Below, one piece after another: positions 4,513 to 59,369 of a DNA stretch of 59,369 nucleotides. The stretch comes from an uncultured Thermococci archaeon. GTDB taxonomy: Archaea; Methanobacteriota_B; Thermococci; Thermococcales; Thermococcaceae. The translations under genes and the position numbers were made by a program. The stretch is from the NCBI GenBank assembly GCA_964615185.1, contig CAZTOS010000004.1, positions 1 to 59,369 on the forward strand, read 5' to 3'. The notes beneath the pieces were generated by a model. That model had not been told where the DNA came from. It did not search any database and worked only from the letters and a program-made list of their open reading frames with translations. The number at the start of each line of letters is the position of its first letter. The first letter of the stretch is position 1.

Positions 4513-4728
4513 TTACCACTCCATGAGCATTATCCAGCTTACATCGTCAATTTTGACTAACAGCTCTTTTCCCTTGTTTCCAACCACATCTGTCACGTTT
4601 TCCAGCAGAATTGACTCTTCATCAAAATCCCTGAGGATTCCGATAAATGAGTGCTCGCTGTTAACTGCTAAGGCAACTTTCTTATTTTTCCACTTCTTAA
4701 GGGTCTCATCAAGCAAAGGCTCGCTCAT
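4513..4728 (-). CDS. Sm/Lsm-like small protein
   Basis: 71 aa with an Sm1-like GILRDFDEESILLENV motif; GGTGG RBS before ATG 4728. Confidence 0.7.
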   Translation of the reverse strand: MSEPLLDETLKKWKNKKVALAVNSEHSFIGILRDFDEESILLENVTDVVGNKGKELLVKIDDVSWIMLMEW

Positions 4729-4789
4729 ATTACCACCTATCATGCAAAAGTCTATAAGTCTTTTTATCCTTTCCGTTTTTGGTGAGTAT

Positions 4790-5614
4790 ATGAGATTCAC
4801 AACCAAAAATGAAGCTGTAAAAAATGCCTTTATTAGCGAGCTGAGAGCTGACGGAATAAAATTTGAAGTTAAAGAAAGGCTGGGTTATGAGACATTCATT
4901 GGATACATGATTGAGGGAACCCTTGAAGAAATTAAAGCGCAGATTGATGCTCTAAGCGGTGAAGAAAGGGAAGTTATCCTGAAAGGATTTCAGTCGTTTA
5001 AGGAGCAGCTTAATCATGCTCTTGAACATTTGAAAGAAGGCGACACCCTCGAGAATTTATTGAGTGAGGGCTACTGGATGGCTGATATAATAGATCAGCT
5101 CATGAGGAACTCTGCTCTGGATATTGAGGAGAACAAGGTAAAGCTGAAGGAGGGTATTGATGTCACAAAGCTCAAGTTCCAGTTCCGCTTCCCTTATGAA
5201 TTGGCAAAGCAACTTGATGTTGTGGAAAAAATTGCAAAGCAGTTTGCTTTTATCGATTTAGTTCCTGAGTGGGAGATTGAAATAAGGGAATTTAGGATTG
5301 AGAGAATAAATCGAGCCTTGCACATCGCAGCAAAGTATTTCCCAGAGAAAGATGTCATGAATGTGTACTTTGCTTTGATTGGAAAGTCCATTGTCGCCAA
5401 TGAAATCCTAAAGGCTCTTGGAGATGAAAAGATACCTTTAAATGCTCTTATTGAGGTCTTTTTGAAAGCTTTTCCTCTTGAAATTCCAACGGAAAAAGGA
5501 GTAATGGTAATCAATGCAACCGAGAAGTCTATTTACAGCATTCTAAGGGAGCTTGAGAAGGGTGGATATATTGATATAAAAGGAAACAAAGTCAAAAAGC
5601 TCAGAGAGTTGTGA
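4790..5614 (+). CDS. Conserved hypothetical protein with wHTH-like C-terminus; paralog of 29227-30048
   Basis: GGTGA RBS before ATG 4790; ends ELEKGGYIDIKGNKV. Confidence 0.75.
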   Translation: MRFTTKNEAVKNAFISELRADGIKFEVKERLGYETFIGYMIEGTLEEIKAQIDALSGEEREVILKGFQSFKEQLNHALEHLKEGDTLENLLSEGYWMADIIDQLMRNSALDIEENKVKLKEGIDVTKLKFQFRFPYELAKQLDVVEKIAKQFAFIDLVPEWEIEIREFRIERINRALHIAAKYFPEKDVMNVYFALIGKSIVANEILKALGDEKIPLNALIEVFLKAFPLEIPTEKGVMVINATEKSIYSILRELEKGGYIDIKGNKVKKLREL

Positions 5615-5627
5615 TTTTTCTTTTTTC

Positions 5628-6009
5628 AAGTCTCGCCCTTTAGGGCGGGGTACGAACCACTACCCAATTAGCCTTTAAGCACCGGAACTCTTTTAAACTC
5701 TTGAACGTAGTAAGGCCTCGAAGAGGCCACCGAGGACAAACCCTTTCAAAGAGTTTCATCATGGCCTATCCGTTTGGATAGGCGACGCCGATAGGCGTCC
5801 ACTTTCCACGCCACCCGGCGTGGCCATAAAGACTCCAAAAAGTGGCCTCTAAGCGATAACCCTGAGCCTTCCCGCTCTTGCGGGAGGTAGGGGTAACGGG
5901 GGCAAGACCGTCCCCGAGGGGCTGAAGTTAGGCTATGAAGCCCCTCAAACCTCCCTGTCAATGGCGAGGGGTTAACTCGTTGGAACCCTCGCAAAAGGGA
6001 GGAGGTCAG
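5628..6009 (+). mobile_element. Non-autonomous IS200/IS605-like element with internal promoter and omega-RNA-like 3' end (copy 1)
   Basis: GC-rich with no credible ORF; left-end hairpin CTCGCCC-TTTA-GGGCGGG; right end GGAGGAGGTCAG; colinear with 35557-35937 and 59255-59369. Confidence 0.8.
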
Positions 6010-6012
6010 CAT

Positions 6013-6042
6013 CTGATATATGATGAGTACGGGAGTGTCTGA
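6013..6042 (+). ncRNA. Candidate box C/D sRNA, 3' half (D'-C'-guide-D)
   Basis: CTGA(6013)-TAT-ATGATGA(6020)-12 nt GTACGGGAGTGT-CTGA(6039), canonical archaeal spacing; no 5' C box visible. Confidence 0.5.
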
Positions 6043-6043
6043 G

Positions 6044-6790
6044 CTACCTTTCAATGTAGCATTCAGACATTGCATAATAAAGTGGATGACATACTATACG
6101 CCTCATCTTCGCTTTTCCATTCTTTTTCAACCACTCTAATAACCTTTGGGCAAATTCAAACTTTTTTCTCTTTGATTCCCAGATGGGCGCGTGTTCCCTC
6201 AGATATGGCTTGCTCCACTTTCCGACTATGTCCCCAAAATCAAATCCAACCAAAACTATTTCTTTTGCTCCAAGTTCTTCTGCTAAGAAAGCAGCTCTGT
6301 CCCCATCTGTAAAGCCGCCGAAGTTGTAAACTATGTCTAAAGGTTCTGTTTGGCATGTGCCAAGAACCTTTCCAAGCTGTGGGACGTATTTTCTTATCTT
6401 CTCAATGTTATCTCCATGAGCATGAACCACAATGTAAGCTCCAAGCATGTCAGCTTTCTTTATATCTTCAAAATTTCCATCAAGGTCTGTAACAATGATA
6501 TTTGGAATTACTTCAAATTGCAAGAGAGCAGAAGTTGCACCGTCGGCTGCAATCGTTACTCCATCATGAAAAGAGAGATATTTAAGAGCAAGCTCCAAAC
6601 TTGGTCCAGCTCCAAAAATATATACTTTCCTTCCTTCAAGCATCTCTTTCAAAAAATCAACTTTTATGTAGTTTTTATTTTTGAGAAGTAGATTTTGGAG
6701 AATTTTAGCTGATTCCCTGTCCTTGCTTGTGTCATATCCCATCTCTTCAATAATCTCCATGTAAAAAGGTTTCCAGTTTTGGAACTTCAT
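6044..6790 (-). CDS. mptE: 6-hydroxymethyl-7,8-dihydropterin pyrophosphokinase (DUF115)
   Basis: GAGPSL, IAADGA, VTDLDG, HAHGDN and FGGFTDGDRA motifs. Confidence 0.88.
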   Translation of the reverse strand: MKFQNWKPFYMEIIEEMGYDTSKDRESAKILQNLLLKNKNYIKVDFLKEMLEGRKVYIFGAGPSLELALKYLSFHDGVTIAADGATSALLQFEVIPNIIVTDLDGNFEDIKKADMLGAYIVVHAHGDNIEKIRKYVPQLGKVLGTCQTEPLDIVYNFGGFTDGDRAAFLAEELGAKEIVLVGFDFGDIVGKWSKPYLREHAPIWESKRKKFEFAQRLLEWLKKNGKAKMRRIVCHPLYYAMSECYIER

Positions 6791-34376: not shown

Positions 34377-34709
34377 GTGATTAGAATGGAGGAACTGTTA
34401 AAAGCCTTCACAAATACCCTTGGAAAATTTAAGCTTACCAGTTCGGAAATCGAGATATATTCCCTTCTTCTACAGGAGCAGTTGACACCAAGACAGATAG
34501 CAAAAAAGCTTAATTTGTCTGAAAGAATAGTTAGGGAGAAGCTTAAACACCTCCTTGAGCTGGGATTAGTTGAAAGGGAGCTAATAAATAGGGGATGGCT
34601 TGGCTATATCTACAAGGCTAAGGCTCCAAAGGAAGCATTGAATTCTCTTCTCTCTAAGATGGAAGAACTCATAAAAATCTTCGAAAAGGAAGCAAATAGG
34701 ATACTTTAA
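34377..34709 (+). CDS. TrmB-like winged-HTH transcriptional regulator
   Basis: [30 protein letters not shown]; divergent from the UbiA operon. Confidence 0.82.
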
Positions 34710-35542
34710 AGATTAAGCTTTCCCTCCAGTAAATCTCTAACGTATTTTGGCATTTGGAACAGAGTTTCATGCTTTTCGGGATCATAATAAATAAGTTCAA
34801 GCTGCCTTGCCCTTTCCAAATCTATCCTCTCAAAGTCAACATTACCCTTAACTCCAACTAAGAAGCTCCATGGTGAAGCATAGCCAATCACTGGAAAGCT
34901 GAAGTAGTAAACCTTGTCAAACGCCTTTTTCATGGCTTTATGAGCATCTAACAGCTCATTTGTAAAGAGGTAAACACTGCCAGCTTGTGTTATGAGAATC
35001 CCATCATCATTCAATGCATTGTACGCAGCCCTATAGAATTCTTCGCTGAATAACTGCCTTGCTGGTCCAACTGGATCTGTTGAGTCAACAATTACTATGT
35101 CAAACTTCTCGTTAGTATTTTTCACGAATTCAACCCCATCACCAATGACAACTTCCGCTCTCGGGTCATCAAACGCTCCCCTATCAATGCCAAGATAAAT
35201 CTTTGAAATCTCAACAACCATTTCATCAATCTCGACCATAACAGCTTTTTCAACAGTTTTGTGTTTTAAAACTTCTCTAAGTGTGCCTCCATCACCGCCA
35301 CCAATGACGAGGACTTTTCTTGGATTGGGATGAGCTAACAAAGCGGGATGAACTAAGGGTTCGTGGTAGCTTTCCTCTCCCTGCTCTACTAACTGAACAG
35401 TTCCCTCTAAAACCAAAAGCTTTCCAAATCCTTCAGTCTCATAAATTTCAATTCTCTGGTACATGCTTTGGGTCTCAAACAGCTTTTCCTTAATTTTGAA
35501 TGCAACCCCGTAACCTCTTGGATACCACTCTATGAAATGCAT
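34706..35542 (-). CDS. speE: Polyamine aminopropyltransferase (spermidine synthase family)
   Basis: [25 protein letters not shown]. Confidence 0.95.
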
Positions 35543-35556
35543 CCATCTTCACCCTG

Positions 35557-35937
35557 CTGACCTCCTCCCCTTTGCGAGGGTTCTAACGAGTTAACCCCTC
35601 GCCATTGACGGGGAGGTTTGCGGGCTCATAACCTACTCCCGTTGCCGGTTTCGGCTCAGCCCATAGGCCCGGTCTTGGGCCCGTTACCCCTACCGCAGAG
35701 CGGATTGGGGTTATGGTTTAAAGGCCACCCATTGGAGTTTTCAACCGCTTGAAAGCGGTTTTGAAAGGACGCCTTACGGCGTCATCCCTCCCAACGGGAG
35801 GGACACGATAAACCTCTCATCTCATCGGGTTGTTCTTTGGTGGCCTCTCCGAGGCCCTATTACGTTGCAAGAGTTTAAAAGGGTTTCGATTTATAAAGAG
35901 CCGGATTCTCAATTACTGCATCCCCGCCCCGAGACTT
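35557..35937 (-). mobile_element. Non-autonomous IS200/IS605-like element with internal promoter and omega-RNA-like 3' end (copy 2)
   Basis: Colinear with 5628-6009: AAGTCTCG start, CTTTTAAACTCTTG promoter, GACGCC-loop-GGCGTC, TAGGGGTAACGGG, CAAACCTCCC.GTCAATGGCGAGGGGTTAACTCGTT, end GGAGGAGGTCAG. Confidence 0.8.
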
Positions 35938-36052
35938 TCAAGAGAAAAAGTAACATATCTCCATATTTTAGTTTTAAACTTAATGAAAACTAAGGCTATA
36001 AATCAGCTTTCAGAAAAAGACAAAAAGCTGAAAATAACGAAAGTAAAAAGAT

Positions 36053-59254: not shown

Positions 59255-59369
59255 CTGACCTCCTCCCCGCTGTGAACGGCGAGGCTTCCAACGAGTCAAC
59301 TCCTCACCAATGGCGGGGAGGTTTGCGGGCCCATCACCATGAGGTTCAACCCGCAGGCTCGGTCTAAGG
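59255..59369 (-). mobile_element. Right end of an IS200/IS605-like element (copy 3, truncated by the window)
   Basis: Reverse complement ...GCCCGCAAACCTCCCCGCCATTGGTGAGGAGTTGACTCGTTGGAAGCCTCGCCGTTCACAGCGGGGAGGAGGTCAG. Confidence 0.8.

What the first reader, a model, noticed from the sequence alone, without database searches (positions are those of the whole stretch)
5628..6009. Protein-free, self-promoted omega-RNA elements: a dispersed family of solo guide-RNA cassettes
Seen: 5628-6009 (+, 382 bp) and 35557-35937 (-, 381 bp) are colinear, diverged copies with no credible ORF. They share an AAGTCTCG left end, a conserved internal BRE/TATA (GGAACTCTTTTAAAC and GAAACCCTTTTAAAC) and the right end GGAGGAGGTCAG. 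A third right end lies at 59255. Established: IS200/IS605 elements have terminal hairpins and no target duplication, and their right end encodes the TnpB omega-RNA whose guide is the flanking DNA. Inference: these are tnpA/tnpB-less derivatives that still express a ~300-nt RNA. Each would have a different guide (CATCTGATATATGATG..., CAGGGTGAAGATGGATG..., CTTTCTGATTCAGAG...) and be loaded by a TnpB encoded elsewhere, forming a dispersed guide set for element retention or host regulation.
Basis: partly seen in the sequence, partly recalled or inferred. Interest (0 to 1): 0.85.

Follow-up and report, generated by a model that had tools for sequence, protein, structure and literature searches.

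The report
Gene-less transposon carrying TnpB guide RNA
These are roughly 390-base, protein-free jumping elements, present in about half of Thermococcus-type archaeal genomes, that carry a promoter-like signal, an uncatalogued folded domain and the guide-RNA end of a TnpB nuclease gene, and likely borrow enzymes from full-length relatives to move and to defend their own insertion site.

Summary
The two copies are real and 70% identical; the left ends start about 12 nt further out (5616-6009; 35557-35949). They are non-autonomous IS200/IS605 elements: left end, BRE/TATA motif, a ~130-nt five-helix domain not derived from tnpB, an HgcC-like omega-RNA scaffold derived from the tnpB 3' end, and right end. 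All three window sites have empty alleles, without target duplication, in 5 of 5 relatives. The genome holds 8 full solo copies, 8 cognate tnpB genes (rearranged RuvC-II type) and one tnpA. The 5' domain occurs in 53 of 99 Thermococcales genomes and in none of 34 other genomes of the phylum. Guides are simply the insertion-site flanks, so retention is favoured over host regulation. Transcription and TnpB loading are untested. The kind is known (omega-RNA-bearing PATEs; P. abyssi sRk RNAs); I found no record of the 5' domain. At this locus, copy 1 split a box C/D sRNA gene and copy 2 sits in the speE leader. This scan noted the same family before on other DNA (e1-8572816, e1-9884856, e1-9965668).

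The parts
5612..5615 (+). TAM-like tetranucleotide TGAT next to the left end of copy 1 (its TGA is the stop codon of ORF 4523-5614); the original target is inferred to be a TGAC 35 bp further right in the empty allele
5616..6009 (+). Copy 1: whole non-autonomous IS200/IS605 element (394 bp)
5616..5650 (+). Left end: T-rich segment, predicted guide tetranucleotide CAAG (5627-5630) and subterminal hairpin (5631-5650)
   Evidence: the same end precedes tnpB genes on C42 and C27
5683..5697 (+). BRE/TATA-like promoter motif (CTTTTAAA at 5690-5697)
   Evidence: 87 of 109 copies carry it at a fixed place
5714..5728 (+). Short inverted repeat GGCCTC-GAA-GAGGCC straddling the predicted transcription start (G5720)
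   Evidence: loop G lies 30-31 nt from the first TATA base in 84 of 87 copies; spacing rule from PMC4247193; start site inferred
5720..5849 (+). 5' structured domain: a closing helix around up to four hairpins; not tnpB-derived; no Rfam family
5856..6009 (+). omega-RNA/HgcC-like scaffold homologous to the tnpB 3' end, including the right end (GAAC 5983-5986, shortened hairpin, terminal TCAG 6006-6009)
6010..6029 (+). Predicted guide of copy 1 (insertion-site flank)
   Evidence: inferred from TnpB biology
6010..6046 (+). 3' remnant of a box C/D sRNA gene: D' box 6013-6016, C' box 6020-6026, D guide 6027-6038, D box 6039-6042
   Evidence: intact in 5 of 5 relatives; Rfam snoPyro_CD 36-43 bits in 3 of 3 scanned, gathering score 45
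35950..35953 (-). TAM TTAC of copy 2
35557..35949 (-). Copy 2: whole element (393 bp), inserted between the promoter-like motif and the ribosome-binding site of speE
35921..35949 (-). Left end of copy 2 with AAAG (35935-35938); hairpin tip is 7 nt shorter than in copy 1
35874..35888 (-). BRE/TATA-like promoter motif of copy 2
35720..35850 (-). 5' structured domain of copy 2, with a K-loop-like GAUGA-GAUGA hairpin (motif label recalled)
   Evidence: CM score 163 bits
35557..35714 (-). omega-RNA scaffold of copy 2, of the solo type with a loop-E/K-turn-like arm (motif labels recalled)
35537..35556 (-). Predicted guide of copy 2; it covers the RBS and start codon of speE (34706-35542, spermidine synthase)
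59255..59369 (-). Copy 3: 3' part of another element, cut by the contig end; its scaffold is of the solo type
   Evidence: empty site after CTAC (3), TTAC (1) or TTGC (1) in 5 of 5 relatives

Best explanation
These are protein-free IS200/IS605 mini-transposons (PATE-like) of Thermococcaceae that likely move with a Y1 transposase encoded elsewhere and are predicted to transcribe a ~310-nt RNA whose 3' half would guide a TnpB encoded elsewhere to cut the empty copy of their own insertion site. Shown: architecture, precise insertion after a TTAC- or TGAC-type motif without duplication, recent spread, shared ends and scaffold with tnpA/tnpB elements of the same genome, and a conserved fold. Inferred from known families: TnpA peel-and-paste mobilisation; TnpB cutting at TAM plus flank, followed by recombination that restores the element. 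Inferred only: transcription from G5720; the 5' domain stands in for the lost tnpB mRNA as a protective, probably L7Ae-bound leader that TnpB may trim off.
For: Empty alleles for all three window sites in 5 of 5 same-genus genomes, joining the flank directly to a TAM-like motif. Left-end tetramer tracks the target: of 89 AAAG/AGAG/AAGG ends, 61 follow TTAC/TTAT, 6 follow TGAC and 22 have no motif; of 7 CAAG ends, 5 follow TGAC/TGAT. In tnpB elements this held for 4 of 4 CAAG and 6 of 6 AAAG ends (10 of 20 left ends were located), as the IS608 pairing rule predicts (recalled). Copies 98-99% identical lie at different sites in G021 and G086. 8 of 10 tnpB hits in this genome are the cognate family; two are full length, with RuvC-I D, RuvC-II G, a downstream E and RuvC-III D, the arrangement of active TvTnpB with TAM TGAC (PMC10530073 passages). 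One tnpA-tnpB element shares the ends. Cognate TnpB is in 45 of 53 domain-positive genomes versus 20 of 46 negative ones (kin are not independent). The promoter motif is in 87 of 109 copies at fixed spacing, against 0.003 expected per window. Scaffold and right end are kept in 108 and 111 of 126 hits (loci picked by best score). Double-sided pair changes occur in both halves (16 of 42 pairs; 62 cells against 25.7 +/- 3.5 shuffled). Scaffold types swap between solo and tnpB elements.
Against: There is no transcript evidence for any solo copy. In this genome 8 of 16 copies not cut by a contig end have lost most of the scaffold, and 5 of those also lack the promoter; several share a breakpoint, so spread does not require the RNA. 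Eight of 53 positive genomes lack the cognate TnpB at E 1e-40, some of them complete. The solo-type scaffold (86 of 99 solos) differs from that of 19 of 19 sampled tnpB copies, and was seen on 1 of 6 further tnpB copies, a broken one; loading by the resident TnpB is therefore not assured. Two of the five covariation measures were not beyond shuffles (69/500 and 215/500), and the structure was derived from the same alignment. Copy 1 now abuts TGAT, not TGAC, and both window copies have a shortened right-end hairpin.
Confidence: 0.62

Rival explanations
1. Passive PATE: the element spreads through TnpA alone; promoter and scaffold are inherited baggage refreshed by recombination with tnpB copies, and the hairpins matter, if at all, as single-stranded DNA structure during transposition.
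For: Scaffold-less and promoter-less variants occupy several sites; four ~45-bp fused-end elements exist; copies persist in genomes without cognate TnpB; mosaic copies show recombination.
Against: Full ~390-bp copies dominate the sampled loci and include the youngest ones. The solo lineage has its own scaffold arm with double-sided changes, a fixed promoter spacing and GNRA, K-loop-like and loop-E-like motifs typical of RNA (labels recalled).
Confidence: 0.22
2. Competitor or decoy RNA: the solo RNA is made and binds TnpB or L7Ae, but the 5' domain keeps it inactive as a guide, so it titrates TnpB and tunes cleavage or tnpB mRNA processing.
For: 5' mRNA sequence inhibits AmaTnpB cleavage in cis (PMC10278001 Results part 1); the 5' domain is as conserved as the scaffold; copy number is high where tnpB is abundant.
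Against: No direct data. TnpB removes 5' sequence from its RNA. The scaffold-flank boundary is exact in 111 of 126 hits, as a working guide needs.
Confidence: 0.09
3. Domesticated host regulators: the dispersed guides direct TnpB to host genes or invaders, or the elements are kept as promoters and leaders for downstream genes.
For: Copy 2 lies in the speE leader; 19 of 107 flanks have a start codon within 60 nt; a few insertions are shared between species, one after loss of the left end (L066/L071).
Against: Sites are empty in 5 of 5 relatives, so insertions are lineage-specific. Only 2 of 27 guides have a TAM-adjacent 14-mer match elsewhere in the genome, both T/C-rich, and none of the window's three. 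The cognate TnpB keeps its catalytic residues. No hit in viral contigs or plasmids.
Confidence: 0.07

Closest known systems
omega-RNA-encoding PATEs / standalone omega-RNAs of IS200/IS605 (Meers et al., PMC10055086, passages; Altae-Tran et al., PMC10691335, passages)
   Same: Protein-less elements with left and right ends shared with tnpA/tnpB elements of the same genome; RNA predicted to be used in trans.
   Different: Here an archaeal lineage of fixed ~390-bp design with an extra ~130-nt folded domain not derived from tnpB, two target classes and a rearranged-RuvC TnpB partner.
HgcC family (Rfam RF00062), sot RNAs and the PATE RNA VNG_R0052 (PMC4615843, passages); T. kodakarensis HgcC1-5 (PMC4247193, passages)
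   Same: The 3' half matches HgcC at 19-38 bits including GAGGAGGUCAG; HgcC4 and HgcC5 are transcribed without a transposase gene.
   Different: Below the gathering score of 50; the model covers only the 3' ~130 nt. Whether HgcC4/5 belong to this family was not established.
sRk48/sRk52 and sRkB/sRkC of Pyrococcus abyssi (Phok et al. 2011, PMC3124441; sections 8-9, supplements 4 and 6 read)
   Same: Repeated, intergenic, promoter-driven, L7Ae-binding RNAs resembling tnpB 3' ends, with fixed 5' and variable 3' ends, in the same order of archaea.
   Different: Different sequence families: their alignments end in AACGG, not GGTCAG, and by eye show neither this 5' domain nor these ends.
TnpB2 / RIIr-type TnpB, e.g. 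TvTnpB of Thermoplasma volcanium (PMC10530073, PMC10691335; passages)
   Same: The cognate nuclease has the same catalytic rearrangement and, for one subgroup, the same TGAC motif before the left end.
   Different: No direct alignment to TvTnpB was made; a second subgroup here goes with TTAC; nearest solved structures are distant (E 4e-11).

Membership tests
IS200/IS605 non-autonomous element (PATE-like) | Subterminal hairpins at both ends, shared with a Y1-TnpA element | tested here: met
   hairpin tips are shortened in the window copies
IS200/IS605 non-autonomous element (PATE-like) | Insertion 3' of a fixed tetranucleotide, without target duplication | tested here: met
   empty alleles in 5 of 5 relatives at three sites; TAM counts
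IS200/IS605 non-autonomous element (PATE-like) | No protein-coding gene | tested here: met
   only a start-less TnpB remnant in copy 1
IS200/IS605 non-autonomous element (PATE-like) | Dispersed copies and recent mobility | tested here: met
   19 copies of the 5' domain in this genome; 98-99% identical copies at different sites in two other genomes
IS200/IS605 non-autonomous element (PATE-like) | Excision and insertion by TnpA in trans | not testable with these tools
   needs an excision assay
Standalone TnpB omega-RNA | Scaffold homologous to the tnpB 3' end, ending at the right end, with a variable flank | tested here: met
Standalone TnpB omega-RNA | Cognate TnpB with catalytic residues in the same genome | tested here: met
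   by sequence only
Standalone TnpB omega-RNA | Is transcribed | tested here: inconclusive
   promoter motif conserved; the RNA runs held relatives with empty sites and no cover of the 5' domain
Standalone TnpB omega-RNA | Loads TnpB in trans and guides cleavage | not testable with these tools
   needs RIP-seq and in vitro cleavage
HgcC (RF00062) | Score at or above the gathering threshold of 50 bits | tested here: not met
   18.7 bits for copy 1; at best 38.2 bits among six loci
sRk48/52 and sRkB/C (IS607-like solo RNAs) | Sequence family ending in AACGG | tested here: not met
   by-eye comparison with supplements 4 and 6

The most novel reading that the evidence does not exclude
The 5' domain is a purpose-built RNA module that lets gene-less elements capture TnpB in trans, out-competing the nuclease's own mRNA. 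That would make this a family-wide hyperparasitic guide cassette with its own evolved scaffold. At this locus the transcript would also run into the split C/D gene and form an omega-RNA / box C'-D chimera that still guides 2'-O-methylation.
Probability: 0.25. Interest if true: 0.78.

Novelty: new variant of a known kind. Interest (0 to 1): 0.5.

Why it matters
The role of standalone omega-RNAs is stated to be unknown (PMC10691335). This family makes the question testable in genetically tractable hyperthermophiles: many natural copies, empty alleles, deletion variants, two TAM classes and TnpB-free hosts as controls. The 5' domain is a structured RNA candidate without an Rfam family in about half of the Thermococcales genomes examined. 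It may be a natural way to express a thermostable guide apart from the nuclease gene, which would be useful for high-temperature TnpB tools. The element also remodels host loci: it split a C/D sRNA gene and sits in the speE leader.

Tried and rejected
Rfam at gathering level found only two tRNAs in the window. Origin of the 5' domain from tnpB coding sequence was rejected (best tblastn E 0.12, against 1e-15 for the 3' half). RNA evidence: eight runs from two studies held 6% of the words; they show empty sites and only 3'-scaffold matches, so they say nothing on solo copies, and contig depth cannot rank expression. A 5'-3' closing helix (GGCCUC with GAGGUC), predicted, was set aside because the predicted start site lies just after that hexamer; it stays possible if transcription starts about 6 nt earlier. 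The target of the split C/D sRNA was not found (no exact complement of the D guide outside its own locus in two genomes; no clear match in 16S or partial 23S). Viral contigs: 0 matches to a strict 5'-domain pattern. Plasmids: none. In genome contigs, 12 of 18 pattern hits are labelled Thermococci; the 6 bacterial hits have no full domain. A third TnpB subfamily was not found: the weaker hits checked in five genomes were truncated or frameshifted members, or distant families. The sigma-70 promoter scan does not apply to archaea. Seven paper searches listed no description of this family; the library lacks most subscription journals, ISfinder was not available, and supplement files 13-15 and the figures of PMC4247193 could not be seen.

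Full report
Observation. Copies at 5628-6009 (+) and 35557-35937 (-) align end to end (70.5% over 352 nt, E 2e-39) and fold better than shuffles (z -7.0, -4.2). A third right end at 59255 is cut by the contig end. The window is contig C4 of G000, a 138-contig genome; pattern hits with the full domain in named records are labelled Thermococci.

Boundaries and targets. Left ends across the genome share a T-rich segment of about 12 nt before CAAG or AAAG and a hairpin, so the elements are 5616-6009 and 35557-35949. In 5 of 5 same-genus genomes each of the three sites is empty, with the right flank joined directly to a TAM-like motif and no duplication. Among 100 parsed left ends, AAAG-type ends follow TTAC/TTAT in 61 of 89 (6 TGAC, 22 none), and CAAG ends follow TGAC/TGAT in 5 of 7. 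The right end has GAAC before the hairpin and ends in TCAG. Both fit the guide/cleavage-site pairing rule of IS608, which I recall rather than read; PMC10055086 (passages) states the principle.

Partners in the genome. Ten TnpB zinc-finger hits were found; eight belong to one family whose 3' end is homologous to the element's 3' half, and seven of these show the full right end. Two are full length (C56; C16, which lies behind the single Y1 tnpA). They have RuvC-I D, G in place of the RuvC-II E, a downstream E and RuvC-III D, the arrangement described for TnpB2/RIIr proteins, of which TvTnpB cleaves at TGAC (passages). In other genomes, tnpB elements close to C56 have CAAG/TGAC-type ends (4 of 4 located) and those close to C16 have AAAG/TTAC ends (6 of 6); 10 of 20 left ends were not located by my pattern.

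Anatomy of the RNA. A BRE/TATA-like motif sits at a fixed place in 87 of 109 copies, against 0.003 expected per 60-nt window; the same strict pattern matched 6 of 42 tRNA upstream regions. With the 23-bp spacing of T. kodakarensis the start falls on G5720, the loop of a short inverted repeat; this G is 30-31 nt from the first TATA base in 84 of 87 copies. The predicted RNA is about 290 nt plus flank. Its 3' ~155 nt derive from the tnpB C-terminal coding region (tblastn E 1e-15) and match HgcC below threshold (19-38 bits of 50). Its 5' ~130 nt do not derive from tnpB (best E 0.12), have no Rfam match and form five helices with 91.8% of cells paired and 62 double-sided changes against 25.7 +/- 3.5 in shuffles. 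Two other measures were not beyond shuffles, and the structure came from the same alignment of related sequences.

Distribution. The 5' domain has 19 copies in G000, 8 of them in complete elements 67-89% identical. A covariance model finds it in 53 of 99 genomes of the order, all in one family, and in none of 34 further genomes of the phylum. Of 126 hits in fetched loci (chosen mostly by best score, one duplicate), 116 have the promoter motif, 108 the scaffold start and 111 the right end. Of 46 pattern-derived genome and metagenome hits with enough flank, 41 have the scaffold start and 43 the right end. Three copies in G021 and two in G086 are 98-99% identical at different sites, so the full design still moves. 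Cognate TnpB occurs in 45 of 53 positive and 20 of 46 negative genomes, TnpA in 17 of 53 and 3 of 46; kin are not independent. A loop-E-like arm occurs in 83 of 99 solos and 0 of 19 tnpB copies, but in 1 of 6 further tnpB copies; 4 of 99 solos, including copy 1, carry the tnpB-type scaffold. The solos are thus an old lineage that exchanges 3' halves with tnpB elements.

Results against. No RNA data test a solo copy: the runs laid came from relatives with empty sites. Eight of the 16 G000 copies not cut by a contig end lack most of the scaffold, five of them the promoter too, and four ~45-bp fused-end elements exist. Eight positive genomes lack the cognate TnpB; five of them checked hold other TnpB families.

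Guides. They are host flanks. Of 27 right ends tested in G000, 2 have a TAM-adjacent 14-mer match elsewhere with at most one mismatch, both T/C-rich; the three window guides have none. Of 107 distinct flanks, 19 have a start codon within 60 nt and only copy 1 runs into C/D boxes. This favours self-retention over host regulation.

Local consequences. Copy 1 inserted at TGAC inside the D' guide of a box C/D sRNA gene that is intact in 5 of 5 relatives (snoPyro_CD 36-43 bits of 45 in three). Compared with the two relatives that share the upstream gene, G000 lacks the 35 bp holding box C, so the left end now abuts TGAT; the D', C', D guide and D boxes survive behind the right end. Copy 2 lies between speD and speE, 14 nt before the speE start codon.

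Mechanism. Most likely TnpA in trans excises and inserts the element; the internal promoter gives an RNA whose 3' half loads TnpB in trans; TnpB cuts TAM-plus-flank empty alleles and recombination restores the element, the model of PMC10055086 (passages). TnpB can trim 5' sequence from its RNA and tolerates 3' padding (PMC10278001, abstract and Results part 1), so the 5' domain may be a removable protective leader. Only the anatomy, mobility and conservation are shown here.

Novelty. Protein-less elements with omega-RNAs, standalone omega-RNAs, a transcribed archaeal PATE and promoter-driven tnpB-like intergenic RNAs in Pyrococcus are in print. This family and its 5' domain did not appear in seven searches or in the passages of a 2026 archaeal IS survey. 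Earlier notes of this scan describe the same family on other DNA; I saw them after reaching this reading. Verdict: new variant of a known kind, interest 0.5.

Noticed in passing
window 6010-6046; L074-L078: Copy 1 split a box C/D sRNA gene; box C is lost but the D', C', D guide and D boxes remain behind the right end, whose GGAGGA sits where box C was. Target not found.
   Followed up: partly
window 35537-35556 and 35950-36000: Copy 2 separates speE from its upstream promoter-like motif; the predicted guide spans the RBS and ATG, and the element may now be the speE leader.
   Followed up: partly
window 5714-5728 and other copies: An inverted repeat straddles the predicted start site; its loop is GAA or GGA in 110 of 123 parsed copies, like stable DNA GNA triloops (recalled). 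It may be an operator or a DNA hairpin.
   Followed up: partly
G000 C32:14408-14453, C13 near 26091, C6 near 35797, C67 near 827: About 45-bp elements in which left and right ends are fused around one hairpin (minimal PATEs).
   Followed up: no
L035, L036, L037, L039, L040: A promoter-less sub-lineage that keeps the 5' domain but lacks most of the omega scaffold has spread to several sites, some with a shared breakpoint.
   Followed up: partly
L010:395-547: TGAC-type tnpB elements carry a 51-aa ORF before tnpB with a weak ribbon-helix-helix match (E 0.002, below cut-off).
   Followed up: partly
L066/L071 (G031, G034); L054/L055; L045/L134; L130/L133: Insertions shared between genomes; L066/L071 lost the left end but keep promoter, both domains and an identical 25-nt flank, so they are candidates for domestication.
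   Followed up: no
L272 (G018): A broken tnpB gene ends in the solo-type scaffold, showing exchange from solo to tnpB element.
   Followed up: partly
L001 (C31) and L002 (C69): Two unrelated TnpB families; the C31 gene has no omega-like 3' flank, and the C69 protein has N at the RuvC-I aspartate position.
   Followed up: no
L047:1443-1527: A second HgcC-like match on the opposite strand near a solo copy in G094.
   Followed up: no
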